The notes under the pieces are model-generated. The model was not told the origin of the DNA, did not search any database, and was given only the letters and a program-made list of their open reading frames with translations. From IMG/VR virus record IMGVR_UViG_3300020059_000001, positions 14,679 to 78,678 of that record: DNA of 64,000 nucleotides. One strand, 5' to 3'. The position numbers and the translations under genes were made by a program. The stretch is from a virus. Lineage: Duplodnaviria; Heunggongvirae; Uroviricota; Caudoviricetes. Positions 1,266 through 19,130 of this stretch are shown piece after piece; within the stretch, counting starts at the first letter, position 1; every line of letters starts with the position of its first letter.

Positions 1266-1338
1266 ACGGGCGTGGCGCAACTGGAAGCGCAGCGGATTCC
1301 AAACCCGCCGGTTGCAGGTTCGAGCCCTGTCGCCCGTG
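1266..1338 (+). tRNA. tRNA-Trp (anticodon CCA)
   Basis: acceptor ACGGGCG/CGCCCGT, D-stem GCGC/GCGC, anticodon loop TTCCAAA, T-loop TTCGAGC. Confidence 0.6.
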
Positions 1339-1447
1339 CGTAACACGAACGGCACCCCTAATGCGGGGTCGCACACGGCAACACTTGAGAATTCCACAGT
1401 GGAATGGCAATAGCTGGAGGACTCAGGGTTCAACTGGGCCCTCCGGA

Positions 1448-1520
1448 CGGAAGCGACCGGCACGGTGACCGGGCCTCGTTTGGGACGAGGACGCACGGGG
1501 TTCGATTCCCCGGCTTCCGA
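1448..1520 (+). tRNA. tRNA-Pro (anticodon TGG)
   Basis: acceptor CGGAAGC/GCTTCCG, anticodon stem CCTCG/CGAGG loop TTTGGGA, T-arm CGGGG-TTCGATT-CCCCG. Confidence 0.75.
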
Positions 1521-1651
1521 CGATGCCGGCAGTACCAGTGATCGGGCACATACCCAAAAGCAGGTCGTAACCGTCGGCATTTCCACCAGGGTGCCAGCGA
1601 TGGCATGTCTGGACGGTTCACCGTTGGGGCCTAGCCAGCCTCACCCCCCAT

Positions 1652-1724
1652 GTCCTTCAAGCTCAGAAGGCAGAGCGCCGGTGTGAAGTACCGGAGGTTC
1701 TCCGTTCGATCCGGAGGAGGGACA
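1652..1724 (+). tRNA. tRNA-Phe (anticodon GAA)
   Basis: acceptor GTCCTTC/GAGGGAC (one G-U), D-stem GCTC/GAGC, anticodon stem CCGGT/ACCGG loop GTGAAGT, T-loop TTCGATC. Confidence 0.65.
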
Positions 1725-1796
1725 CGTTGGCGACGAGGGCATCGGTTATCCGCCTACCGTCGGGAAGATTTCCCATCCCTCGTCGCCAGCACGTAA

Positions 1797-1868
1797 GGCC
1801 CGCTCGACCACGGGTTAGGTCAGCTCCCTCTCCAGGAGCAGGACGGGGTTCGAGTCCCCGGCGGGCTA
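1797..1868 (+). tRNA. tRNA-Glu (anticodon CTC), anticodon-loop assignment tentative (C37)
   Basis: acceptor GGCCCGC/GCGGGCT, D-stem GACC/GGTC, anticodon stem GCTCC/GGAGC loop CTCTCCA, T-arm CGGGG-TTCGAGT-CCCCG. Confidence 0.5.
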
Positions 1869-1892
1869 CAACGACACCTAGTCGTAGTTTGT

Positions 1893-1963
1893 GTGGCGCT
1901 AGCTCAACAGTAGAGCGCTGGTCTTCCAAACCAGCGATCGGGGTTCAATTCCCCGGCGCCGCT
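1893..1963 (+). tRNA. tRNA-Gly (anticodon TCC)
   Basis: acceptor GTGGCGC/GCGCCGC, anticodon stem CTGGT/ACCAG loop CTTCCAA, T-arm CGGGG-TTCAATT-CCCCG. Confidence 0.7.
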
Positions 1964-1968
1964 CTCAA

Positions 1969-2041
1969 TCGGGAATTGAGTAATAAGGTAGCTCACGATA
2001 CTTTGGATATCGTAGTCCAGGTTCGAGCCCTGGTTCCCGAG
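1969..2041 (+). tRNA. tRNA-Gln (anticodon TTG)
   Basis: acceptor TCGGGAA/TTCCCGA, anticodon stem CGATA/TATCG loop CTTTGGA, T-arm CCAGG-TTCGAGC-CCTGG. Confidence 0.7.
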
Positions 2042-2203
2042 CGTTGAGGTAGGTCAGCCGGTCGTGGGGGTCGCTCCCTCAATCCGGGATCCGGTGACGG
2101 ACACCAGGCAGGCCGATAAGGAACGTCGTGAGACCGATCGATACTAGTTGTTTGATCGGGTAGCGGCGTAAATGCAGCGAATGCGCTACGCCTACCTCGC
2201 ATT

Positions 2204-2277
2204 GCCCCGGTCGCTCAATTGGTAGAAGCACCGCCCTTAAAGAGCGGTCAGTGCGGGTTCGAGTCCCGTCTGGGGCA
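2204..2277 (+). tRNA. tRNA with anticodon TAA (nominally Leu/UUA-reading) but class I fold with a 5-nt variable loop
   Basis: acceptor GCCCCGG/CTGGGGC, anticodon stem CCGCC/AGCGG (4 bp + C·A) loop CTTAAAG, variable TCAGT, T-arm GCGGG-TTCGAGT-CCCGT, discriminator A. Confidence 0.5.
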
Positions 2278-2416
2278 CGCAGTTCCGGCTCGGGCGCCCT
2301 GGTGATGTACACACCCCCGAGTCGGGTAACGGAGAGGAACACCTCAGGTCTGGCAGCGATCAAGGGCTCAAGCCGGCGCCTCCCATGGAAAGGTCCCTGG
2401 TGTTCCCCTCCACCCC

Positions 2417-2492
2417 GCCCCGGTAGCCCAACTGGCAGATAGGCACCGCTTTCAAGTAGCGGACAGTGTCGGTTCGAATCCGACCCGGGGCA
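2417..2492 (+). tRNA. tRNA with anticodon CAA (nominally Leu/UUG-reading) but class I fold with a short variable loop
   Basis: acceptor GCCCCGG/CCGGGGC, anticodon stem CCGCT/AGCGG loop TTCAAGT, variable ACAGT, T-arm GTCGG-TTCGAAT-CCGAC. Confidence 0.5.
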
Positions 2493-2496
2493 CTGC

Positions 2497-2569
2497 GCCT
2501 TCGAAGCTCATCAGGTTGAGCGTCGCCTCGGTAAGGCGAAGGCAGTCGGTTCGAATCCGACCGAAGGCT
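2497..2569 (+). tRNA. tRNA-Thr (anticodon GGT), C33 in loop
   Basis: acceptor GCCTTCG/CGAAGGC, D-stem GCTC/GAGC, anticodon stem TCGCC/GGCGA loop TCGGTAA, T-arm GTCGG-TTCGAAT-CCGAC. Confidence 0.6.
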
Positions 2570-2575
2570 CTCGTT

Positions 2576-2649
2576 GCAGATGTAGCTCAGCTGGTCTAGA
2601 GCGCGACGTTGCAACGTCGAGGTCGCCGGTTCGATCCCGGTCATCTGCT
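2576..2649 (+). tRNA. tRNA-Cys (anticodon GCA)
   Basis: acceptor GCAGATG/CATCTGC, anticodon stem CGACG/CGTCG loop TTGCAAC, T-arm GCCGG-TTCGATC-CCGGT. Confidence 0.7.
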
Positions 2650-2687
2650 CCATTCCGATCGTCGCCGTCGAAGGGAGGGTGATCCTG

Positions 2688-3152
2688 ATGGTTGATGGCA
2701 GTGTTCTTGTTCTTAACGCTGACCTTGGGCCGTTGCACCGGGTCAGCCTCCGACATGCGATCAAGATGTTGTTCCGGGAGGTTGCCGAGGTTCATGAGGC
2801 AGCCGAGGAGGAACACATACCCTGCTTCGGCCCGTGGGTTAAGCCGAAAATTATTCGTCTGGTTCGGTACGTGGTGCCGAGGTGGCGGTGGACTGAGGGC
2901 CCTGGCTGGTCGAGGCCTGGTGTGATGGCCCGTGATGGTCGCCGGTGCGGCTACTGCGGTGGCCACGCCAGCACCGTTGACCATATTGTGCCGCGGTCGC
3001 GGGGTGGGCTGAACAGCTGGCCGAACACGGTTGCGAGTTGTGATCGTTGCAATCAGCGTAAGGGTGACAGGGTACCGGCCGAGGCTGGGATGCCGTTGCT
3101 GATCACGCCGACGGTTGTCACCTGGGCCTCACTGCGACAATCACCGAGTTAG
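2688..3152 (+). CDS. HNH endonuclease
   Basis: ORF 2679..3152; RBS AAGGGAGG 9 nt upstream of ATG 2688; motifs CGYCGG..DHIVPRSRGG..N..CDRCNQRK. Confidence 0.8.
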   Translation: MVDGSVLVLNADLGPLHRVSLRHAIKMLFREVAEVHEAAEEEHIPCFGPWVKPKIIRLVRYVVPRWRWTEGPGWSRPGVMARDGRRCGYCGGHASTVDHIVPRSRGGLNSWPNTVASCDRCNQRKGDRVPAEAGMPLLITPTVVTWASLRQSPS

Positions 3153-3180
3153 GGTGGTATCAATCCGTCGAGAGACGGAG

Positions 3181-3420
3181 GGCAGCGGAGGGGTTGGCAA
3201 GGCGTGGCTGGGCCTGCGAAGGCATGGCGTGGCACGGCAAGGCCAGGCAGCAGTGGCGGGGCGTGGCTCGGCAAGGCGGCAACGGCTCGGCAGGGCAGGG
3301 CAGGGTATGGCAAGGCATGGCTTGGCAGCAGCGGCGTGGTAGGCCTGGGCTGGGCATGCTAGGGCAAGGCAGCCACGGCGAGCCGTGGCGGGGCCGGGCA
3401 TGGTAAGGCAAGGCGCGGCG
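3181..3420 (+). repeat. pentanucleotide-periodic GGCNN tract (about 48 units, imperfect); G-rich on plus strand
   Basis: printed 10-mers resolve into 5-mers: ggcaa ggcgt ggctg ggcct .. caggg caggg caggg ..; a similar tract occurs at 58621-58835. Confidence 0.8.
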
Positions 3421-3430
3421 CATCTGAGCC

Positions 3431-3462
3431 GGCCGGCGGGGTCCTCCGTTCCCCCGCCGGCC
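3431..3462 (+). terminator. GC-rich hairpin with 11-bp stem (GGCCGGCGGGG/CCCCGCCGGCC), terminator-like structure between repeat tract and tRNA-Gln
   Basis: perfect inverted repeat read directly; no clear U-tract. Confidence 0.35.
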
Positions 3463-3469
3463 ACCCCAT

Positions 3470-3543
3470 TCGGGACTGGTGTAATTCCGGCAGCACGACA
3501 GGTTCTGGCCCTGTTAGTGGAGGTTCGAGTCCTCCGTCCCGAG
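3470..3543 (+). tRNA. tRNA-Gln (anticodon CTG)
   Basis: acceptor TCGGGAC/GTCCCGA, anticodon stem ACAGG/CCTGT loop TTCTGGC, T-arm GGAGG-TTCGAGT-CCTCC. Confidence 0.7.
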
Positions 3544-3549
3544 CTTCCT

Positions 3550-3622
3550 GCCCTCGTGGCCCAATGGCAGAGGCAACGGTCTGAGGGGCCGTACGGTGCC
3601 GGTTCGAATCCGGCCGAGGGCA
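3550..3622 (+). tRNA. tRNA with anticodon GAG (nominally Leu/CUC-reading) but class I fold, 73 nt
   Basis: acceptor GCCCTCG/CGAGGGC, anticodon stem ACGGT/GCCGT loop CTGAGGG (G37), variable ACGGT, T-arm GCCGG-TTCGAAT-CCGGC, discriminator A. Confidence 0.5.
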
Positions 3623-3882
3623 CGACCACATCCCCAAAGGGCGGCTTGATGGATGCCAAAACTCAAATCCATCGTTGAATGAGAACCAGAAGGAAGCCGG
3701 TCCAGAAAAAACCGAGCTGCAAGGAGCATTCGTGTAGTAGGCCACGCAGCACCGCGGAAGGGTTTTGTGTAGCCCACCGCAATCCGGCCGAACGACATCA
3801 CGATCTGAAAGCTCTCCGTCAGTAACGGTTGAAGAAAGCGGGACGGGCGGGCCGCTAACCAAAATCGTCCGTCCCGTACCAT

Positions 3883-3956
3883 GCCGACGTAGCTCACTAG
3901 GCTAGAGCGCTGTTCTTGTAAATCAGAGGTAATCGGTTCGAATCCGATCGTCGGCT
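3883..3956 (+). tRNA. tRNA-Thr (anticodon TGT)
   Basis: acceptor GCCGACG/CGTCGGC, D-stem GCTC/GAGC, anticodon loop CTTGTAA, T-arm ATCGG-TTCGAAT-CCGAT. Confidence 0.65.
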
Positions 3957-3987
3957 CTCTCTACTACTTTGAAACGGGAGGACAAGG

Positions 3988-4176
3988 GTGGGTACGAAGT
4001 CATTGTCGTGGCGGAAGAGTAGCTTCAGCTCGGACACGGCGAACTGTGTCGAGTTCGCGCCGGCCGGCGAACTGGTAGGGGTTCGGGATTCGAAGGACCC
4101 GGACGGGCCGGCGTTGTGGTTCGCCCCGGATGTTTGGCAGGCGTTCGTGGACACGGTCCGCAACGACGAGCTGTAA
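3988..4176 (+). CDS. DUF397 domain protein
   Basis: GTG start with GGGAGGA RBS; motif SWRKSSFS...NCVEFA...VGVRDSKDPDGPAL.F....W.AF typical of Streptomyces DUF397. Confidence 0.75.
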   Translation: MGTKSLSWRKSSFSSDTANCVEFAPAGELVGVRDSKDPDGPALWFAPDVWQAFVDTVRNDEL

Positions 4177-4280
4177 AAGCGGGGAACGAAAGGCTTCGGC
4201 GGAGAAGTCAGGTCGTTTCCTTCCAAATCCCTGTCGGTGGGTGGAGTACCACGGTGGACACTCCGTGCTACCCGGTTGAT

Positions 4281-4313
4281 GCCATCCAGGACTCCGCCGC
4301 CGTCCTGGATGGC
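4281..4313 (+). terminator. hairpin with 12-bp perfect stem GCCATCCAGGAC/GTCCTGGATGGC (terminator-like; no U tract)
   Basis: inverted repeat read directly downstream of DUF397 gene. Confidence 0.4.
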
Positions 4314-4380
4314 TATAGGTGCCGGGGTGAACCGAATGCTCGCGGACGGAGCAACCACTTTGCCGTCGCGGCGAGCGCCC

Positions 4381-4454
4381 GCCAGCGCAGCACTGAAGGT
4401 ATGTGCGCCCGTCTCGTAAACGGGAGGTAGACGGTTCGATCCCGTCCGTTGGCT
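4381..4454 (+). tRNA. tRNA-Thr (anticodon CGT)
   Basis: acceptor GCCAGCG/CGTTGGC, D-stem GCAC/GTGC, anticodon stem CCCGT/ACGGG loop CTCGTAA, T-arm GACGG-TTCGATC-CCGTC. Confidence 0.7.
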
Positions 4455-4458
4455 CCGA

Positions 4459-4531
4459 GGGCTCTTAGCTCATCTGGTAGAGCGCCTGTTTTGCAAGCAG
4501 GAGGTGGTCCGTTCGAGTCGGACAGGGTCCA
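4459..4531 (+). tRNA. tRNA-Ala (anticodon TGC) with G3:U70
   Basis: acceptor GGGCTCT/AGGGTCC incl. G3·U70 identity pair, anticodon stem CCTGT/GCAGG loop TTTGCAA, T-arm GTCCG-TTCGAGT-CGGAC. Confidence 0.75.
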
Positions 4532-4532
4532 C

Positions 4533-4615
4533 GCCCGAGTGGTGGAATTTGGCAGACACGCCAGTCTTAGGAACTGGTTCTTTCGGGAGTGCAGGTTCGA
4601 GGCCTGTCTCGGGCA
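4533..4615 (+). tRNA. tRNA-Leu (anticodon TAG), canonical class II with long variable arm
   Basis: acceptor GCCCGAG/CTCGGGC, anticodon stem CCAGT/ACTGG loop CTTAGGA, long variable arm TTCTTTCGGGAGT, T-arm GCAGG-TTCGAGG-CCTGT. Confidence 0.7.
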
Positions 4616-4632
4616 CGGTATTACCCGCTCAT

Positions 4633-4707
4633 GCCCTGTCGGTCCAGTTGGGAGTGGACGCCGCCCTGTCAAGGCGGAGATCGCCGGTTCAAATCCGGTA
4701 CGGGGCG
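4633..4707 (+). tRNA. tRNA-Asp (anticodon GTC)
   Basis: acceptor GCCCTGT/ACGGGGC, D-stem GTCC/GGAC, anticodon stem CCGCC/GGCGG loop CTGTCAA, T-loop TTCAAAT, discriminator G. Confidence 0.75.
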
Positions 4708-4722
4708 CGCGCAGTTGCAATT

Positions 4723-4818
4723 GGAGAGATGGCATGAGTCTGGTTGATGGCGCCGCACTGCTAATGCGGTCTACGGGGTTTTCTCCTCGTAGCGCGGGTT
4801 CGAATCCCGCTCTCTCCT
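4723..4818 (+). tRNA. tRNA-Ser (anticodon GCT), class II, D-arm slightly long
   Basis: acceptor GGAGAGA/TCTCTCC, anticodon stem CCGCA/TGCGG loop CTGCTAA, long variable arm, T-arm GCGGG-TTCGAAT-CCCGC. Confidence 0.6.
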
Positions 4819-4822
4819 CAAT

Positions 4823-4897
4823 GGGGTCGTAGCTCAGTAGGTGATGAGCGCCGAGCTGATAACTCGGAGGTCGGTGGTTCGATTCCATCCGGCCCCA
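4823..4897 (+). tRNA. tRNA-Ile (anticodon GAT)
   Basis: acceptor GGGGTCG/CGGCCCC, anticodon stem CCGAG/CTCGG loop CTGATAA, T-arm GGTGG-TTCGATT-CCATC. Confidence 0.7.
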
Positions 4898-5018
4898 CTT
4901 TCCGGCCGGGACGCGTACCGCGAAAGGGAAACCGGAGTTGGTTTGGCTGACCAGCTCCTGGCGGCGCCCACATAGGCCAGCCCGCACGCCGCACCGGAAG
5001 CGGCGAGGCGGGCACCAT

Positions 5019-5091
5019 GCCCCCATAGCTCAGCGGATAGAGCACAAGATTACGAATCTTGGAGTCGGGAGTTCGAATCTCTCTGGGGGTG
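5019..5091 (+). tRNA. tRNA-Arg (anticodon ACG)
   Basis: acceptor GCCCCCA/TGGGGGT, anticodon stem CAAGA/TCTTG loop TTACGAA, T-arm GGGAG-TTCGAAT-CTCTC. Confidence 0.7.
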
Positions 5092-5192
5092 CGGGACCAG
5101 TAGGAGGCTTAGCGGCGGTCGCAGCAGAGGTTGCCCATCCGGTCCGCGAGTTTGGTTGCGCTCGACGGAGCTGGAAGCATGTCGAGTAGTAA

Positions 5193-5266
5193 CGGGCGTT
5201 AGCTCAGTTTGGCAGAGCGCTGTCTTCGGGAGGCAGAGGCCGCGCGTTCGAGTCGCGCACGCCCGA
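5193..5266 (+). tRNA. tRNA-Pro (anticodon CGG)
   Basis: acceptor CGGGCGT/ACGCCCG, anticodon stem CTGTC/GGCAG loop TTCGGGA, T-arm GCGCG-TTCGAGT-CGCGC. Confidence 0.7.
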
Positions 5267-5314
5267 CGTGAAGGTCTACATAGCAATCCCCGAGGCCTAC
5301 GACGGCATCACCGA

Positions 5315-5569
5315 TTAGTTAGCACACTTAGGGTACACCGAATCCTCAGGGCAGTTATCCCACACCTGCCGACTCACCGTGATATTTCTAGGTCCGTTGT
5401 CGGTCCTAATGGTCAGCCGAAAGGTCACCCCTGCATGTAGCCGGGACTGCACTATGCCTTCTACCTTGTCGTTCTGACTACCTCCGCCGCCAGCACACGC
5501 GAAGAACACCCCTGCGATCAGGGCACTACATGTCCAGGTCGCCATCGACAACTTCTTCGACGTCCTCAT
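5315..5569 (-). CDS. small lipoprotein/secreted protein embedded in tRNA array
   Basis: MRTSKKLSMATWTCSALIAGVFFAC|AGGGGSQ: signal peptide + lipobox-like Cys; ORF 5315..5608, internal ATG 5567-5569 preferred. Confidence 0.4.
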   Translation of the reverse strand: MRTSKKLSMATWTCSALIAGVFFACAGGGGSQNDKVEGIVQSRLHAGVTFRLTIRTDNGPRNITVSRQVWDNCPEDSVYPKCAN

Positions 5570-5611
5570 GTGCAGGGATCGTAATGCCCGGTGGGGGCGC
5601 TGGCACAAACT

Positions 5612-5700
5612 GGAAGCGTAAGCCGAGAGAGGACTACCGGCTGCCGTCTTGAAAACGGTTAGGGCTAACCCCCGTGCGAGTTCGAGCCTCGCCGCTTCCG
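5612..5700 (+). tRNA. tRNA-Ser (anticodon TGA), class II
   Basis: acceptor GGAAGCG/CGCTTCC, anticodon stem GCCGT/ACGGT loop CTTGAAA, long variable arm TAGGGCTAACCCCC, T-arm GCGAG-TTCGAGC-CTCGC. Confidence 0.65.
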
Positions 5701-5708
5701 CGTGATAC

Positions 5709-5783
5709 GCGCCGCTAGCTCAGTCTGGTCAGAGCAGGAGATTCTTACTCTTCGGGTCTCGGGTTCGAATCCCGGGCGGCGCA
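5709..5783 (+). tRNA. tRNA-Lys (anticodon CTT)
   Basis: acceptor GCGCCGC/GCGGCGC, anticodon stem GGAGA/TCTTC loop TTCTTAC, T-arm TCGGG-TTCGAAT-CCCGG. Confidence 0.7.
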
Positions 5784-5791
5784 CGCACTAA

Positions 5792-5865
5792 CCCCCGGTG
5801 GTCCAACTGGAGAGGGCAGCGTCCTTCTAAGGCGCGAGATGTCGGTTCGAATCCGACCCGGGGAA
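5792..5865 (+). tRNA. tRNA-Arg (anticodon TCT); 5' end uncertain (C1·A72 mismatch)
   Basis: anticodon stem GCGTC/GGCGC loop CTTCTAA, T-arm GTCGG-TTCGAAT-CCGAC, acceptor CCCCCGG/CCGGGGA. Confidence 0.55.
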
Positions 5866-5866
5866 C

Positions 5867-6205
5867 ATGGCTACCAACGAATACATGCGTGAGTACCAAC
5901 GTCAACGCTATCACGCGCGACGCGCGGAAGGCATGCGCCTTCTAGGTGGAGTATGTATTGACTGCGGAGTTTCAAAGAACCTTGAATTCGACCACAGAGT
6001 GCGAGAAGAGAAGACTCTCGAAATGGGCGAGGCCCTATGGAAGGTAAGTCGAGCAAGGTTTCTAAGCGAATTAGCTAAGTGCGACCTTCGATGTAAGCCG
6101 TGTCATATAACACGAACACTGTCGAGGGCGGATGGATGTGGCAACGGCGTATGGCGATGTCCATGCGGAAACCTGTCGGTCAATCAAACGACAGTTACAA
6201 CGTGA
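5867..6205 (+). CDS. HNH-type homing endonuclease-like protein (lower-GC insert within tRNA array)
   Basis: ORF 5867..6205; motif CIDCGVSKNLEFDHRV....C..CH; local GC clearly lower than surroundings. Confidence 0.6.
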   Translation: MATNEYMREYQRQRYHARRAEGMRLLGGVCIDCGVSKNLEFDHRVREEKTLEMGEALWKVSRARFLSELAKCDLRCKPCHITRTLSRADGCGNGVWRCPCGNLSVNQTTVTT

Positions 6206-6233
6206 GTATCTGCGGACTTATCGGGCCCGCAAA

Positions 6234-6305
6234 GCCCTCGAAGCTTAATGGAGAAGCATCGTCCTCCTAAGACGAAGATTCCGGGTTCGACTCCCGGCGG
6301 GGGCA
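6234..6305 (+). tRNA. tRNA-Arg (anticodon CCT)
   Basis: acceptor GCCCTCG/CGGGGGC, D-stem GCTT/AAGC, anticodon stem TCGTC/GACGA loop CTCCTAA, T-arm CCGGG-TTCGACT-CCCGG. Confidence 0.7.
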
Positions 6306-6309
6306 CGGG

Positions 6310-6382
6310 GCGCCGTTAGCTCAATTGGCAGAGCTGCGCACCTTTAATGCGAGGGTTCAGGGTTCAAGTCCCTGGCGGCGCA
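6310..6382 (+). tRNA. tRNA-Lys (anticodon TTT), tentative (4-bp anticodon stem, C33)
   Basis: acceptor GCGCCGT/GCGGCGC, anticodon loop CCTTTAA flanked by CGCA/TGCG, T-arm CAGGG-TTCAAGT-CCCTG. Confidence 0.5.
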
Positions 6383-6485
6383 CGCACCGGTTTTGCTAGT
6401 TTCCGAGTAGGTTCGTAAAGTTAAGTGCGGCACTCCAATGGTCGAGCCTATGCCTAAAAAACTAGCGCCCCAATTTTCAACACAA

Positions 6486-6557
6486 GCCCCGGTAGCTCAG
6501 CGGTGGAGCGTCGGTTCGACACACCGGAGGTCCCTGGTTCAAATCCAGGTCGGGGCA
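6486..6557 (+). tRNA. tRNA-Val (anticodon GAC), tentative (C33)
   Basis: acceptor GCCCCGG/TCGGGGC, anticodon stem TCGGT/ACCGG loop TCGACAC, T-arm CCTGG-TTCAAAT-CCAGG. Confidence 0.5.
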
Positions 6558-6646
6558 CACGGCGAGGAGGCGAACGCGTCGTCTCCGGACCTAGTTGTGC
6601 GGCCGGTTCGATTCCCTTCGCCCTGGTGGGGACCGCACAGCGCACG
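6557..6646 (+). other. structured spacer with T-loop-like GGTTCGATTCC and nested GC stems; possible degenerate tRNA pseudogene
   Basis: GTGCGG...CCGCAC and TCCC..GGGA stems around CCGGTTCGATTCCC; no consistent cloverleaf could be built. Confidence 0.2.
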
Positions 6647-6718
6647 GAGCCGTCGACTAGCGGTCCAGGTCGCTGCCCTTTCAAGGCAGTTGCGCGGGTT
6701 CGAATCCCGTCGGCTCTA
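6646..6718 (+). tRNA. tRNA-Glu (anticodon TTC)
   Basis: acceptor GGAGCCG/CGGCTCT, D-stem CGAC/GTCG, anticodon stem CTGCC/GGCAG loop CTTTCAA, T-arm GCGGG-TTCGAAT-CCCGT. Confidence 0.65.
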
Positions 6719-6723
6719 CTCAT

Positions 6724-6794
6724 TCCCTCATAGCTCAAAGGCAGAGCGGCCGGCTGTTAACCGGCTGATCTTGGTTCGATTCCAGGTGAGGGAG
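6724..6794 (+). tRNA. tRNA-Asn (anticodon GTT)
   Basis: acceptor TCCCTCA/TGAGGGA, anticodon stem GCCGG/CCGGC loop CTGTTAA, T-arm CTTGG-TTCGATT-CCAGG. Confidence 0.7.
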
Positions 6795-6798
6795 CAAG

Positions 6799-6873
6799 GC
6801 GTTACGGTCCGTCCGGTCGGCGGAGCCTGTCTTATAAACAGGTGTTGTTCCGGTTCGACTCCGGCGTGGCGCA
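6799..6873 (+). tRNA. tRNA-Ile (anticodon TAT, AUA-reading), tentative
   Basis: acceptor GCGTTAC/GTGGCGC (two G-U), D-stem TCCG/CGGA, anticodon stem CCTGT/ACAGG loop CTTATAA, T-loop TTCGACT. Confidence 0.5.
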
Positions 6874-6878
6874 CGCAA

Positions 6879-6951
6879 GCCCGTGTAGCTGAATTGGTCC
6901 AGCTCCTTTCCTACAAAAAGGTGTATACAGGTTCGAGTCCTGTCGCGGGTA
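6879..6951 (+). tRNA. tRNA-Val (anticodon TAC), C33
   Basis: acceptor GCCCGTG/CGCGGGT, D-stem GCTG/CAGC, anticodon stem CCTTT/AAAGG loop CCTACAA, T-arm ACAGG-TTCGAGT-CCTGT. Confidence 0.55.
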
Positions 6952-6963
6952 CGTTAGTTCATG

Positions 6964-7037
6964 GTGGCTGTAGCTCAGTTGGTTAGAGCGCCGGGTTGTG
7001 GCCCCGGAGATCGGCGGTTCGAGTCCGCTCAGTCACA
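6964..7037 (+). tRNA. tRNA-His (anticodon GTG) with extra 5' G(-1) at 6963
   Basis: acceptor GTGGCTG/CAGTCAC, anticodon stem CCGGG/CCCGG loop TTGTGGC, T-arm GGCGG-TTCGAGT-CCGCT. Confidence 0.7.
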
Positions 7038-7041
7038 CCAT

Positions 7042-7124
7042 GCCTGTCGTGAGCGGTGGGGTCGCTCAGCGGATTGTAACTCCGCCGCCTTCGGGCATTC
7101 TCGGTTCGAGTCCGGGGACAGGTA
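7042..7124 (+). tRNA. tRNA-Tyr (anticodon GTA), long variable arm
   Basis: acceptor GCCTGTC/GACAGGT, D-stem GAGC/GCTC, anticodon stem GCGGA/TCCGC loop TTGTAAC, variable arm CGCCTTCGGGCAT, T-loop TTCGAGT. Confidence 0.7.
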
Positions 7125-7220
7125 CGGCGCGGCTCTGACGGGGTCGTAGGACGGTGGGTTGGCTAGCACCTGCTCCGTATGTTCTGAAGAGGCGGTGTGC
7201 ACCTGCCTCCCGTCGCCTAT

Positions 7221-7293
7221 GCCCTCGTAGCTCAGTGGATAGAGCACCAGAATCCGGATCTGGGTGTCGGAGGTTCGATTCCTCTCGTGGGCG
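7221..7293 (+). tRNA. tRNA-Arg (anticodon CCG); one acceptor mismatch
   Basis: acceptor GCCCTCG/CGTGGGC, anticodon stem CCAGA/TCTGG loop ATCCGGA, T-arm GGAGG-TTCGATT-CCTCT. Confidence 0.6.
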
Positions 7294-7382
7294 CATGGAT
7301 GCTATCTGGAAGGAGCTGGCCATGTGTTAGGTGGTGTAATTCCTGCACAGGGTGTGTGGGTAGCCCATTGGGGTTACCGGGA

Positions 7383-7805
7383 ATGTCTAGGACGGATAAG
7401 ACTGATCCGTGGTGGGTTGGTCGGTGGTGGAAGCCGGTGCATGGTTTGCATTGCCCGGAGTATATGCCGCGGCGTAGGTGGCAGCGGGTGGATCGGTATG
7501 TGGAGTGTGATCTGCCGGTGGAGCCGCCGCGGCGGCCTCGGATGGATCGGCGGTGGCCGCGCCCTGGCGCAAAGGCTGGGTGTGTGTGGTGGCCAGTGAG
7601 CCCGTCGTACTACACGGTCAGGGGTCGGAAGTTGTTTGGCCGGGGCCGGCATGTCAGGTTTGCGGCGAACTTGCAGGAGCGTGGCGCACGGGCGGCGTGG
7701 CGGGCTGCGGCGGTGACTTTACGTGCTGTGCGGGGGGATGATGTCGACGATGTGGTTGTGCCTGATCCGCGGCATCGACGTTGTGCCCTGTGGGAGTGGG
7801 ACTGA
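7383..7805 (+). CDS. hypothetical Trp/Arg-rich protein (140 aa)
   Basis: internal ATG of ORF 7197..7805 lying after the last tRNA; high GC3; MSRTDKTDPWWVGRWWKP... Confidence 0.4.
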   Translation: MSRTDKTDPWWVGRWWKPVHGLHCPEYMPRRRWQRVDRYVECDLPVEPPRRPRMDRRWPRPGAKAGCVWWPVSPSYYTVRGRKLFGRGRHVRFAANLQERGARAAWRAAAVTLRAVRGDDVDDVVVPDPRHRRCALWEWD

Positions 7806-7815
7806 ATAGGTGGTT

Positions 7816-7888
7816 GGCCGTATGCCTGAGTGGTTGAGGGACGCGTTTGCAAAACGTGGTTACGCCGGTTCGAGTCCGGCTGCGGCCT
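7816..7888 (+). tRNA. tRNA-Cys (anticodon GCA), second copy, solitary
   Basis: acceptor GGCCGTA/TGCGGCC, anticodon stem CGCGT/ACGTG loop TTGCAAA, T-arm GCCGG-TTCGAGT-CCGGC. Confidence 0.6.
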
Positions 7889-7935
7889 CTCGACCAGCCC
7901 GGTACCCGTCGGCGTAGCCAGGATCGTGGGATTGC

Positions 7936-17549: not shown

Positions 17550-19130
17550 CTGCGGCCAGCTATCCGATTCGTTGACTGCTGTCAGTTCGGGGTCCTGTCC
17601 GACGCTGACCCTGACCGGCACCGACGTCGAAGACATCCTGTCCTGTCGTCGCTGCGCAACTGCGACAGGCCAACAACTGTCGGGGCAGTTCCTGACCGCG
17701 GTCCCACCTTACGGTGGGACGGTCCCGGTCTGACCGGCGGATGCCGTGCCGGGTTGACGTTTCACAGCCACCTGCCCGCGAACGCGGGTCTTCTGGTCGG
17801 CTCCACGTCCTGCCACCGGGCCACCCCCGGCAGTGTCGTACTCGGCCGCGAGTGCGGCCAGGTTTCGTGCGGCGTTGAGGTCCCGGTCCAGGACCAGGCC
17901 GCACCCTTCACAGTGGTATTCGCGCTCGGACAGGGCCAGTTTGGTTTTCACCGTGCCGCAACCCGAGCATGTTTTCGATGACGGGTACCAGCGATCGACC
18001 ACGAGTAGTCGTCCGCCACGCCATTCGGTCTTGTATGTCAGTTGCCGGCGGATCTCGGCAAACCCGGCGTCGGCGATGTGCCGGGCCAGCCTGTGGTTGG
18101 CGAGCATGCCGGTGACGTTGAGATCCTCGACCACGACGGTTCCGTGTTCACGGGTCAGGCGAGTAGTGAGTTTGTGTAGCCCGTCACGGCGTAGGTTCGC
18201 TACCCGGGCGTGTGCCTGGCTGAGTCGTGCGGATGCGCGGTGCCATCGGTTCGACGGGCGCTGGCCGGTACGCCGGTCCGGGCCGGTCTTACGCGACAGT
18301 GCCCGACCAAGTCCGCGAAGACGGCGCTGGGCATTGCTCAGGTGGCGCGGGTTGGGCACCAACTCGCCGGTCGAGAGCACCGCGAGGTGTTTGATGCCGA
18401 CGTCGATACCCACCGCACTGCCCGGTCGGGCCGGTGTCCGTATGGCCCGTTCGACTTCGACGTTGTACGAAACGTGCCAGCGTCCACCATCTCGGCGCAC
18501 CGTCGCGGACAGGATTCGGGCGGTGCCGTTGTCGAGACGCCGAGCAAGTTTGCGGGCGGATTCGTGCAGTTTGAAACGGCCCACCCGGGGCAGCACGACA
18601 TGCGTACGGTCCGGCTCGACCCTGATTGCGCCGCTGCCGGCCGTAAACCGAACACTGGGTGTGGTGCGGCGCCGCGACTTGAACCGAGGAAACCCGACCG
18701 CCCGCCCTTTCCGCTTACCTTTACGGGAGTCCGACCAGTTCTTCAGCGCGCGGGCGAGCTGGTCGAGGCCGGTGTTGAACGCTTCCTTCGAACACTCGCT
18801 CCACCAGGGGGCAACGGTGTTCTTGACGGCGTTCCAGTCCTTGCGCATCGAGTACCCCGACCACGACAGGTTCGGCGTCAGGTCGTCCCCGGCGATCCCG
18901 TAGGTGATTTCGGCGGCCCGTTGGTCCATGACCGCCTTTACCCTGGCCAAGCCCCAGTTGAACGCCACCCGCGCAGCTCCGGCGTGCGACCGCACGGCGC
19001 GCTCCTGCATCGGGGTCAGGTCTAGGGCGAAACGGTATGCCTGGTACGTTTTCACCGTCGCCTCCATACGTCAGAGCTGGCCGACTCAGGGCGGCCGAGT
19101 AGCACCAGCGACACATGCCGACCGGAACCG
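17550..19130 (-). mobile_element. second IS200/IS605-family TnpB element, opposite orientation; ends approximate
   Basis: TnpB ORF 17709..19067 with HTH N-terminus; structured 3' region 17640-17708 (CCTGTCG...CGACAGG); left end overlaps 3' end of gene 19052..19507. Confidence 0.5.
17709..19067 (-). CDS. tnpB: TnpB (IS605 OrfB family, with N-terminal HTH domain)
   Basis: 452 aa; YQAYRFALDLT N-term, zinc ribbon CSGCG...CEGCG, DLNAARNL. Confidence 0.8.
   Translation of the reverse strand: MEATVKTYQAYRFALDLTPMQERAVRSHAGAARVAFNWGLARVKAVMDQRAAEITYGIAGDDLTPNLSWSGYSMRKDWNAVKNTVAPWWSECSKEAFNTGLDQLARALKNWSDSRKGKRKGRAVGFPRFKSRRRTTPSVRFTAGSGAIRVEPDRTHVVLPRVGRFKLHESARKLARRLDNGTARILSATVRRDGGRWHVSYNVEVERAIRTPARPGSAVGIDVGIKHLAVLSTGELVPNPRHLSNAQRRLRGLGRALSRKTGPDRRTGQRPSNRWHRASARLSQAHARVANLRRDGLHKLTTRLTREHGTVVVEDLNVTGMLANHRLARHIADAGFAEIRRQLTYKTEWRGGRLLVVDRWYPSSKTCSGCGTVKTKLALSEREYHCEGCGLVLDRDLNAARNLAALAAEYDTAGGGPVAGRGADQKTRVRGQVAVKRQPGTASAGQTGTVPP

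What the first reader, a model, noticed from the sequence alone, without database searches (positions are those of the whole stretch)
2204..3622. Three class-I-shaped tRNAs carrying leucine anticodons (TAA, CAA, GAG) alongside a canonical class-II tRNA-Leu(TAG)
The tRNAs at 2204-2277, 2417-2492 and 3550-3622 fold into complete 73-76 nt cloverleaves. Each has only a 5-nt variable loop, yet each carries an anticodon that would read the Leu codons UUA, UUG or CUC. Bacterial tRNA-Leu normally has a long variable arm, and the array's tRNA-Leu(TAG) at 4533-4615 does. These may be isoacceptors of another amino acid with unusual anticodons (recoding or mistranslation), atypical Leu acceptors, or decoys. 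TAA is the bldA-type anticodon, which is rare in high-GC hosts. No tRNA-Met (CAT) was found in the array, and several tRNAs carry C33.
Basis: seen in the sequence. Interest (0 to 1): 0.65.

Follow-up and report, generated by a model that had tools for sequence, protein, structure and literature searches.

The report
Short-armed leucine tRNAs, actinobacterial type
The three short leucine-anticodon tRNAs are real, but they are the "type I" leucine tRNA that actinobacteria and their phages normally carry, so they most likely insert leucine and do not signal recoding.

Summary
ARAGORN and Rfam both call complete 73-76 nt cloverleaves at 2204-2277 (UAA), 2417-2492 (CAA) and 3550-3622 (GAG). Each has a 5-nt variable loop. 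A class II tRNA-Leu(UAG) lies at 4533-4615.

The anomaly is explained by known biology. Fan et al. 2019 (PMC6614811) showed that Streptomyces coelicolor has a chromosomal type I tRNALeu(CAA) with a 5-nt variable loop, ACAGC, and that its single LeuRS leucylates it. My genome scan found this gene, mostly solitary, across Actinomycetota. The window's tRNAs share its acceptor stem, its Leu-type D-arm (3-bp stem, C13·A22, A14A15..GG.AGA), its ACAGT-like variable loop and A73.

A covariance model built only from those chromosomal genes ranks the three tRNAs first in the array: 90, 76 and 75 bits, against 58 for the next tRNA.

Short tRNA-Leu genes with CAA, UAA, GAG and UAG anticodons are already annotated in known phages of Mycobacterium and Streptomyces, and they are abundant in IMG/VR. 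Best reading: ordinary leucine acceptors charged by the host LeuRS, supplying UUA, UUG and CUC decoding for a 62% GC phage. Charging was not measured. Novelty: new members of a known kind. Interest is low to moderate.

The parts
2204..2277 (+). Type I tRNA-Leu(UAA). Acceptor GCCCCGG/CUGGGGC, D-arm GCU-CAAUUGGUAGA-AGC, variable loop UCAGU, A73, C31·A39 mismatch.
   Evidence: ARAGORN. Rfam 49.1 bits. Model R1 75.8 bits. 79% identity to Streptomyces chromosomal type I Leu(CAA).
2417..2492 (+). Type I tRNA-Leu(CAA). Variable loop ACAGU. G37 follows A36, which is unusual.
   Evidence: ARAGORN. Rfam 52.0 bits. Model R1 90.2 bits, the top hit. 84% identity to Streptomyces chromosomal type I Leu(CAA), with the same acceptor stem, D-arm, variable loop and T-arm.
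3550..3622 (+). Type I tRNA-Leu(GAG). Acceptor GCCCUCG/CGAGGGC, variable loop ACGGU.
   Evidence: ARAGORN. Rfam 55.6 bits. Model R1 75.0 bits. 89% identity to the Leu(gag) of the syntenic array in Plantactinospora solaniradicis (L351), with two compensatory T-stem pair changes. 82% identity to an unannotated tRNA in Thermobifida phage P318.
4533..4615 (+). Canonical class II tRNA-Leu(UAG) with a 13-nt variable region. It has the same Leu-type D-arm architecture (G13·A22).
   Evidence: ARAGORN. Rfam 48.8 bits. PWM best class Leu_long, 49.4 against 29.7 for the next class. D-arm motif.
1266..7889 (+). The tRNA array that holds them. ARAGORN tRNAs; one more class II Ser(UGA)-like gene lies at 5612-5700. 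The array is interrupted by HNH endonuclease ORFs.
   Evidence: The array is collinear with a 25-tRNA array in L351.

Best explanation
The three genes are genuine leucine tRNAs of the type I (short variable loop) kind. This kind is native to Actinomycetota and is common in phage tRNA arrays.

Shown here:
- They fold as cloverleaves.
- They carry the Leu-type D-arm, a 5-nt variable loop ending in U48, U8-A14, A15, G18G19 and A73.
- They are homologous to the chromosomal type I tRNALeu(CAA) of actinobacteria.

Shown by others: that chromosomal tRNA is leucylated by the single S. coelicolor LeuRS, and the same scaffold with a UAA anticodon can replace the bldA tRNA in vivo.

Inferred for this phage:
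- The array is transcribed during infection.
- The tRNAs are processed and given CCA by host enzymes, because the genes encode only C74.
- They are charged with leucine by the host LeuRS, which does not read the anticodon.
- They decode UUA, UUG and CUC/CUU in phage mRNAs, which use UUR codons far more than a high-GC actinomycete does.

The UAA and GAG versions most likely arose from the CAA-type scaffold by anticodon change.
For: - **Structure.** ARAGORN and Rfam call all three as tRNAs.
- **Literature.** PMC6614811 reports the S. coelicolor type I tRNALeu(CAA), with variable loop A44C45A46G47C48. Its kcat/Km with ScoLeuRS is 6.25 s-1 uM-1, against 14.2 for the type II bldA tRNA. A 5-nt loop length and U8-A14 matter for charging. 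The authors could not delete the gene. With its anticodon changed to UAA, the scaffold can replace the bldA tRNA.
- **Genome scan.** They hold 114 short tRNA-Leu(caa) genes, and 109 of the 120 loci contain that one tRNA alone. All 76 distinct sequences have C13·A22.
- **Similarity.** The window's tRNAs are 79-89% identical to these genes or to their array relatives.
- **Isotype-like model.** Model R1 was built from 59 solitary chromosomal genes. It scores the three tRNAs at 90.2, 75.8 and 75.0 bits. The next tRNA, Arg(cct), scores 58.0 and all others 52 or less.
- **D-arm motif.** The Leu-type D-arm occurs in 84% of short Leu and 77% of long Leu, but in 2.7% (34 of 1241) of other class I tRNAs. 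All four window Leu tRNAs have it.
- **Scaffold and anticodon are coupled.** A pattern that allowed Phe anticodons gave 134 of 134 IMG/VR hits with Leu anticodons. With the anticodon left free, 111 of 123 hits had Leu anticodons, spanning both the UUR and CUN boxes.
- **Known phages.** Short tRNA-Leu genes are already annotated in Bonray (gag 74 nt, caa 75 nt), Tomas (taa 75, tag 75), Alone3 (caa 74, tag 75), NootNoot (caa 77) and Archie (tag 75).
- **Stems.** Across 376 distinct short Leu tRNAs the stems stay 93-100% paired, with 3-6 pair types per position (G53-C61 is invariant and the 31-39 pair is looser, at 83%).
- **Codon use.** The phage ORFs use TTA at 3.2, TTG at 23.0 and CTC at 17.5 per 1000 codons.
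- **Identity rules (PMC9976931).** In E. coli neither the anticodon nor the long arm is a Leu identity element. A73, A15-U48, G18G19 and A20a are.
Against: - No aminoacylation or expression data exist for these genes.
- The host is unknown. It is inferred to be an actinomycete from tape-measure hits and from the syntenic array in Plantactinospora.
- Fan et al. report that E. coli LeuRS and one other Streptomyces LeuRS cannot charge the type I tRNA. Charging therefore depends on the host enzyme.
- My crude PWM isotype classifier (75% accurate) did not place them with class II Leu and gave near-ties among several classes. This shows a distinct scaffold rather than a different isotype.
- Leu(caa) has G37 after A36, and Leu(taa) has a C31·A39 mismatch. 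Both depart from the chromosomal consensus.
- The IMG/VR short-Leu sets were picked with patterns that fix part of the D-arm and A73, so those features are not independent in those sets. The chromosomal set and the long-Leu set are independent.
Confidence: 0.85

Rival explanations
1. They are leucine acceptors whose main selected value is to escape host tRNA-cleaving defences. On this reading the phage replaces class II tRNA-Leu with an armless scaffold and altered anticodon loops, so that host tRNases that deplete tRNA-Leu during infection cannot stop phage translation.
For: Published proposals hold that phage tRNA arrays counter VapC, PrrC, retron and PARIS tRNases through loop changes (PMC10264068; titles). 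[quoted passage not shown] The window's Leu(caa) loop UUCAAGU and Leu(taa) loop CUUAAAG differ from the chromosomal consensus CUCAAAC/UUCAAAA. Four other array tRNAs carry C33.
Against: The host's own chromosomal tRNALeu(CAA) already has the armless scaffold, so the scaffold does not set the phage apart from the host. No nuclease is known that targets the tRNA-Leu variable arm in these hosts. Nothing in the window links the tRNAs to a defence system. This reading adds to the best explanation rather than replacing it.
Confidence: 0.08
2. They are bodies of another isotype that carry Leu anticodons. Leu codons would then be deliberately mistranslated or recoded, as with the tRNAPro variants bearing non-proline anticodons reported in Streptomyces (recalled from memory, not checked here).
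For: The class I shape with a Leu anticodon is what first suggested this. The PWM classifier gave no clear Leu call. The acceptor stem GCCCCGG is shared with Val(gac) of the same array.
Against: No alternative isotype wins; the scores are near-ties among three or more classes. The D-arm is Leu-type, a form found in only 2.7% of non-Leu class I tRNAs. The chromosomal homologue is the UUG-reading isoacceptor in S. coelicolor, is leucylated, and could not be deleted (PMC6614811). The scaffold occurs with all six Leu anticodons, and a pattern that allowed Phe anticodons found none among 134 hits. Model R1 ranks them above every other tRNA. Most synthetases that accept A73 class I tRNAs need anticodon bases that are absent here (established identity rules, PMC9976931).
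Confidence: 0.03
3. They are decaying or non-functional tRNA gene copies, or tRNA-like decoys with no role in decoding.
For: The array does contain at least one damaged gene: 2576-2652 is a Gly(GCC) homologue with a one-base deletion in the anticodon. Leu(taa) has a mismatch at pair 31-39.
Against: All three have intact stems, a 7-nt anticodon loop with U33, a canonical T-loop and G18G19. Leu(gag) is conserved at 89% in the syntenic Plantactinospora array, with compensatory T-stem changes GCCGG/CCGGC versus GCGCG/CGCGC. A non-Watson-Crick 31-39 pair is a trait of the functional chromosomal family, where 23 of 76 distinct genes have A·C. The phage uses the codons concerned.
Confidence: 0.04

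Closest known systems
Type I tRNALeu(CAA) of Streptomyces coelicolor (Fan et al. 2019, NAR 47:6369, PMC6614811) and its homologues across Actinomycetota
   Same: 5-nt variable loop (ACAGC or ACAGT, against ACAGU, UCAGU and ACGGU here). U8-A14. A 3-bp D-stem with C13·A22. An A14A15..G18G19.AGA D-loop. A73 followed by C74. GC-rich acceptor stems beginning GCCC. 79-84% identity to Streptomyces chromosomal genes. 75-90 bits with a model built from the chromosomal genes.
   Different: The chromosomal genes are solitary and, in S. coelicolor, only CAA is type I. Here the scaffold sits in a phage array and also carries UAA and GAG. The anticodon loops differ: G37 in Leu(caa) where the chromosomal genes have A37.
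Short tRNA-Leu genes annotated in actinobacteriophages: Mycobacterium phage Bonray (Bixzunavirus), Streptomyces phages Tomas, Alone3 and NootNoot, Mycobacterium phage Archie
   Same: 74-77 nt, the same D-arm consensus GCCCAAYGGCAGAGGC, A73 and Leu anticodons including taa, gag, caa and tag. They often sit beside a class II tRNA-Leu in the same array.
   Different: Sequence identity is only 75-82%. The window's phage has no megablast match among 50,697 phage records, so these are new sequences in a new phage lineage.
bldA tRNALeu(UAA) of Streptomyces
   Same: The same anticodon and codon (UUA), which is rare in high-GC actinomycetes.
   Different: bldA is a class II tRNA with a 17-nt variable arm (PMC6614811). 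The window's UAA tRNA is type I and phage-borne.
Animal mitochondrial tRNALeu
   Same: A leucine tRNA with no long variable arm, with A73 and A14 as identity elements (PMC9976931).
   Different: Unrelated in sequence and structurally lax. S. coelicolor LeuRS does not charge human mt-tRNALeu(UUR) (PMC6614811).

Membership tests
Actinobacterial type I tRNALeu (ScotRNALeu(CAA) type) | Leucine anticodon (NAG or YAA) in a 7-nt loop with U33 | tested here: met
   UAA, CAA and GAG. The loops are CUUAAAG, UUCAAGU and CUGAGGG.
Actinobacterial type I tRNALeu (ScotRNALeu(CAA) type) | Variable loop of exactly 5 nt including nucleotide 48. Fan et al. found this length critical for charging. | tested here: met
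   UCAGU, ACAGU and ACGGU. The chromosomal genes have ACAGU (67) or ACAGC (9).
Actinobacterial type I tRNALeu (ScotRNALeu(CAA) type) | Leu-type D-arm: a 3-bp stem, unpaired C13·A22, U8-A14, A15, G18G19 | tested here: met
   All three carry the motif. So do 66 of 76 distinct chromosomal genes, and all 76 have C13·A22. Only 2.7% of other class I tRNAs carry it.
Actinobacterial type I tRNALeu (ScotRNALeu(CAA) type) | Sequence-and-structure homology to the chromosomal genes, scoring above other isotypes | tested here: met
   Model R1 gives 90.2, 75.8 and 75.0 bits, against 58.0 or less for the other 31 tRNAs. Identity is 79-84%.
Actinobacterial type I tRNALeu (ScotRNALeu(CAA) type) | Leucylation by the host LeuRS | not testable with these tools
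   Shown for the S. coelicolor gene only (PMC6614811). The host of this phage is unknown.
Canonical bacterial class II tRNALeu | Long variable arm (more than 10 nt, usually a stem-loop) | tested here: not met
   The three have 5-nt loops. Only 4533-4615 has a 13-nt variable region. The PWM does not place the three in the long-Leu class.
Mistranslating or anticodon-mismatched tRNAs | The body (identity elements) belongs to a different isotype from the anticodon | tested here: not met
   No alternative isotype stands out. The body matches the type I Leu family. The scaffold is coupled to Leu anticodons.

The most novel reading that the evidence does not exclude
Phages have taken the armless leucine scaffold, which S. 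coelicolor uses only for CAA, and spread it over all six Leu anticodons (and, in a few viral contigs, to stop-codon anticodons). It appears in viral contigs of 34-59% GC, so well beyond actinophages. Such a scaffold might be portable because LeuRS ignores the anticodon, and it might escape host control (bldA-type regulation of UUA decoding) or host tRNases. In this window that would mean the UAA and GAG tRNAs free the phage from the host's limited or regulated tRNA-Leu supply. I found no paper that describes this phage-wide pattern, but my searches covered open-access text only.
Probability: 0.2. Interest if true: 0.5.

Novelty: new member of a known kind. Interest (0 to 1): 0.27.

Why it matters
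For this window, the result removes a false lead. A class I shape with a Leu anticodon is not evidence of recoding when the host is an actinomycete. Annotation pipelines and readers who apply the rule that tRNA-Leu is always class II will keep flagging these genes.

Three modest points go beyond that:
- The type I tRNALeu(CAA) described for S. coelicolor appears widespread in Actinomycetota. The capped scan returned it from many genera, including Streptomyces, Mycobacterium, Micromonospora, Rhodococcus and Thermobifida.
- Phage arrays carry the same scaffold with other Leu anticodons, including the bldA-type UAA. That could uncouple phage translation from host control of UUA decoding.
- The scaffold is plentiful in viral contigs of low GC. 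Published work says E. coli LeuRS cannot charge the Streptomyces type I tRNA, so which enzyme charges these tRNAs in such hosts is an open question.

Tried and rejected
- **Megablast of the array against 50,697 phage records.** No match. The phage is new, so relatives had to be found tRNA by tRNA with blastn.
- **PWM isotype classifier.** I built it from 1,044 ARAGORN tRNAs; it was 75% accurate when each source was left out in turn. It did not assign the three tRNAs to the class II Leu class and gave near-ties among several classes. I read this as a distinct scaffold, not another isotype. A covariance model of independent chromosomal genes then resolved the question.
- **Literature searches for a description of armless tRNA-Leu in phages**. 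None found. One search was wasted by allowing a single-term match. The bacterial Schlafen paper, the phage-tRNA evasion paper and the M. avium tRNA-array paper do not mention it.
- **A misdrawn long variable arm.** Rejected: 73-76 nt leaves no room.
- **Phe identity for the UAA and CAA tRNAs** (two of the three Phe anticodon bases). Rejected: they differ from the array's own tRNA-Phe, they have the Leu D-arm, and the Phe-permissive scaffold pattern found no GAA anticodon among 134 hits.
- **Not used.** The protein-homology, structure-prediction and fold-search tools, because the finding concerns RNA genes.
Full report
**1. The observation**

ARAGORN finds 34 tRNA genes on the + strand between 1266 and 7889, and none elsewhere in the 64 kb. 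Among them are:
- tRNA-Leu(taa) at 2204-2278
- tRNA-Leu(caa) at 2417-2493
- tRNA-Leu(gag) at 3550-3623
- an 84-nt tRNA-Leu(tag) at 4533-4616

The ARAGORN structures show seven-pair acceptor stems, 7-nt anticodon loops with U33, canonical T-arms and A73. The variable loops are five bases long: TCAGT, ACAGT and ACGGT. The side remarks also hold. There is no CAT anticodon in the window. C33 occurs in four tRNAs (Thr-GGT, Lys-TTT, Val-GAC, Val-TAC), none of them Leu.

**2. Context**

The window is 62% GC. It encodes a DnaB helicase, a TnpB-type transposase and an HNH endonuclease inside the array. A 1202-aa protein has partial hits, all to tape-measure proteins of phages of Mycobacterium, Streptomyces, Gordonia, Rhodococcus and Thermobifida. 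Megablast of the array against 50,697 phage records finds nothing. This looks like a new siphovirus-like phage or prophage of an actinomycete.

**3. Relatives in known phages**

Sensitive blastn of each short tRNA finds annotated tRNA-Leu genes in known actinobacteriophages. The annotation tables show that these are also short:

| Phage | Short tRNA-Leu genes |
|---|---|
| Mycobacterium phage Bonray | gag 74 nt, caa 75 nt, beside an 86-nt Leu(cag) |
| Streptomyces phage NootNoot | caa 77 nt |
| Streptomyces phage Alone3 | caa 74 nt, tag 75 nt |
| Streptomyces phage Tomas | taa 75 nt, tag 75 nt |
| Mycobacterium phage Archie | tag 75 nt |

Thermobifida phage P318 has an unannotated copy that is 82% identical to the window's Leu(gag). 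These genes share the D-arm consensus GCC-CAAYGGCAGA-GGC and A73.

**4. The key paper**

Fan et al. 2019 (PMC6614811) report the following for Streptomyces coelicolor:
- It has four class II tRNALeu isoacceptors and one type I tRNALeu(CAA), with a 5-nt variable loop A44C45A46G47C48.
- Its single LeuRS leucylates both types. kcat/Km is 6.25 s-1 uM-1 for the type I tRNA and 14.2 for the bldA tRNA.
- A loop length of five (including nucleotide 48) and the U8-A14 pair matter for charging. Base identity in the loop does not.
- The authors' attempts to delete the gene failed.
- E. coli LeuRS does not charge it.

That last case is essentially the window's tRNA-Leu(UAA). The 2023 identity review (PMC9976931) states that in E. 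coli neither the anticodon nor the long arm is a leucine identity element. A73, the A15-U48 pair, G18G19 and A20a are. All of these are present in the three window tRNAs.

**5. Chromosomal homologues**

I scanned one genome per species with a pattern that fixed only the CAA loop, ACAGY, the T-loop and A73. It left the D-arm and acceptor stem free. Nearly every hit is from Actinomycetota: Streptomyces, Kitasatospora, Mycobacterium, Micromonospora, Rhodococcus, Nonomuraea, Salinispora, Thermobifida, Frankiaceae, Amycolatopsis and others.

ARAGORN short tRNA-Leu(caa) genes in these loci, and 109 of the 120 loci contain that one tRNA alone. So the type I tRNALeu(CAA) is found as a single chromosomal gene in many genera of the phylum, not only in S. 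coelicolor.

The window's Leu(caa) is 84% identical to the Streptomyces gene. The two share the acceptor stem GCCCCGG/CCGGGGC, the D-arm, the ACAGT loop and the T-arm, and differ mainly in the anticodon stem. Leu(taa) is 79% identical to Streptomyces genes. Leu(gag) has the acceptor stem found in the Mycobacterium and Rhodococcus genes.

**6. A syntenic array**

One genome hit, L351, is the first 8 kb of a 539-kb contig of Plantactinospora solaniradicis (Micromonosporaceae). It holds a 25-tRNA array in nearly the same order as the window: Trp, Pro..., Glu, Gly, Gln, Leu(caa)..., Gln, Leu(gag), Ala, Leu, Asp, Ser, Arg..., His, Arg, Cys. The collinearity includes the HNH gene.

Its Leu(gag) is 89% identical to the window's, and two T-stem pairs are changed on both sides (GCCGG/CCGGC versus GCGCG/CGCGC). 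This points to a Micromonosporaceae-like host and shows that the gene is maintained.

**7. An isotype-style test**

tRNAscan-SE is not available, so I made two substitutes.

- **PWM classifier.** It covers 57 structural positions (anticodon and variable region excluded) plus a D-loop-length term, was trained on 1,044 tRNAs, and was 75% accurate when each source was left out in turn. It places the window's class II Leu(tag) firmly in the long-Leu class, but gives near-ties among several classes for the three short ones. They are therefore not class II Leu with the arm removed, and no rival isotype emerges.
- **Covariance model R1.** It was built only from 59 solitary chromosomal type I Leu(CAA) genes. 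With filters off, it scores the three short tRNAs at 90.2, 75.8 and 75.0 bits. The next best array members are Arg(cct) at 58.0 and Arg(tct) at 52.1. All others score 46 or less, and the class II Leu(tag) scores 36. Only one of the three shares the model's anticodon, so the margin comes from the body.

**8. The Leu signature and its coupling to Leu anticodons**

I pooled 376 distinct short Leu, 73 long Leu and 1,241 other class I tRNAs from all fetched loci.

| Feature | Short Leu | Long Leu | Other class I |
|---|---|---|---|
| 13-22 forms a standard pair | 1% | 3% | 80% |
| Full D-arm motif (3-bp stem, N13·A22, loop starting AA) | 84% | 77% | 2.7% |

The long-Leu and chromosomal sets were not selected on the D-arm. 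All 76 distinct chromosomal genes have C13·A22. Most stem pairs in the short-Leu family are 93-100% paired, with four to six pair types each; G53-C61 is invariant and the 31-39 pair is looser, at 83%.

In IMG/VR, a scaffold pattern that allowed NAA and NAG anticodons (Leu or Phe) gave 134 hits. All carry Leu anticodons and none carries Phe. With the anticodon left free, 111 of 123 hits have Leu anticodons: TAA 43, CAA 39, TAG 24, GAG 2, AAG 2 and CAG 1. A body that travels with anticodons from both the UUR and CUN boxes, which share nothing but leucine, is best explained by leucine identity.

The IMG/VR loci range from 34% to 59% GC, so the scaffold is not confined to actinophages.

**9. Likely function**

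A crude gene call (52 ORFs, 9,673 codons) gives these codon frequencies per 1000 codons:

| TTA | TTG | CTC | CTA | CTG |
|---|---|---|---|---|
| 3.2 | 23.0 | 17.5 | 5.8 | 29.9 |

Fan et al. quote 145 UUA and 6,706 UUG codons for the whole S. coelicolor genome. By my own estimate of about 2.6 million codons, that is roughly 0.06 and 2.6 per 1000. The phage therefore uses UUR codons far more than a typical high-GC actinomycete, and a phage-borne supply of UAA and CAA readers makes sense. This step is inference. The host, expression and charging have not been observed. The genes encode C74 but not CCA, so maturation would need host enzymes.

**10. Rivals**

- **Mistranslation or recoding.** Disfavoured by sections 4-8.
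- **Pseudogenes or decoys.** Disfavoured by the intact structures, conservation with compensatory change, and use of the codons concerned.
- **Anti-defence role, as tRNase-resistant substitutes.** This is compatible with leucine acceptance, and the non-consensus anticodon loops hint at it. But the armless scaffold is the host's own, so the scaffold gives no disguise.

**11. Verdict**

The feature is real and more than chance. It consists of new sequences of a known kind, with an experimentally characterised chromosomal counterpart and many annotated phage counterparts. Interest is low to moderate. The residual interest lies in two things: the spread of the type I scaffold across all Leu anticodons in phages, which I could not find described in the searchable literature, and the phage-borne bldA-type UUA reader.

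Noticed in passing
window 2576-2652 (+): A tRNA with a 6-nt anticodon loop (TTGCAA), U73 and an encoded CCA; ARAGORN calls it tRNA-???. It aligns with the tRNA-Gly(GCC) in the same slot of the syntenic Plantactinospora array (87% mean column identity). It looks like Gly(GCC) that has lost one anticodon base, so it is either a dead gene or an odd decoder.
   Followed up: partly
window 5612-5700 (+): A 35th tRNA gene missed by ARAGORN and by the 12-kb Rfam run. It is class II-shaped, with anticodon loop CUUGAAA (Ser-UGA) and G73. It scores 36.3 bits with Rfam tRNA in a focused search and 20.5 bits with R1. It occupies the slot that Ser(tga) holds in L351.
   Followed up: partly
window 2497, 6310, 6486 and 6879 (tRNA start positions): C33 replaces the near-universal U33 in Thr(ggt), Lys(ttt), Val(gac) and Val(tac). 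In the pooled set, 73 of 1241 other class I phage-locus tRNAs have C33. This may relate to the proposals that phage tRNAs evade tRNases.
   Followed up: partly
window 6799-6874 (+) and the whole array: The array has no CAT anticodon at all, so no Met, fMet or lysidine-type Ile tRNA. It does have a tRNA-Ile(UAU) with an irregular fold (three spacer bases and a 4-bp T-stem). Ile(tat) also occurs in phage Tomas and in three MAG arrays. The phage ORFs contain 28 ATA codons.
   Followed up: no
window 1266-7889, 3' trailers: In all 34 ARAGORN tRNA genes, C follows the discriminator directly. Only two (2576-2652 and His 6964-7040) encode the full CCA.
   Followed up: no
window 3196-3372: A G-rich stretch with 5- and 10-nt periodic repeats (GGCAG, GGCAT, GGCAGGGCAT) lies between the HNH gene and tRNA-Gln(ctg). 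Its function is unknown.
   Followed up: partly
window 2679-3152 (+) and 5867-6205 (+): Two small ORFs interrupt the tRNA array. The first is an HNH endonuclease by Pfam (E = 4e-13) and is conserved at 65% DNA identity in L351. The second (112 aa, in a lower-GC stretch) shows a CxxC...DH...CxxCH pattern by eye and was not tested.
   Followed up: partly
window 17709-19067 (-): An IS605 OrfB / TnpB-type (Cas12f-like) transposase ORF inside the phage-like region (Pfam OrfB_IS605 at 1.5e-26 and TNB domain at 9e-24).
   Followed up: no
L351 1-8000 (Plantactinospora solaniradicis NZ_JBHSPR010000032.1): A 25-tRNA array collinear with the window's array sits at the start of a 539-kb bacterial contig. 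This suggests a related prophage and a Micromonosporaceae-type host. In that array Leu(caa), Leu(gag) and Leu(cag) are all short.
   Followed up: partly
L174 4155-4215 (+); L244 2921-2981 (-): IMG/VR contigs carry the type I Leu D-arm (GCCCAACGGCAGAGGC) and A73 with the stop-codon anticodons TTA (reads UAA) and TCA (reads UGA). These may be leucine-inserting suppressor tRNAs built on the anticodon-blind Leu scaffold.
   Followed up: no
L004 10920-10993 (Streptomyces phage Alone3): An annotated tRNA-Ser(gct) of only 74 nt with a weak D-arm, in the same genome as a normal 86-nt Ser(gct). An armless Ser tRNA is harder to explain than an armless Leu, because SerRS is known to rely on the long arm (established knowledge).
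   Followed up: no
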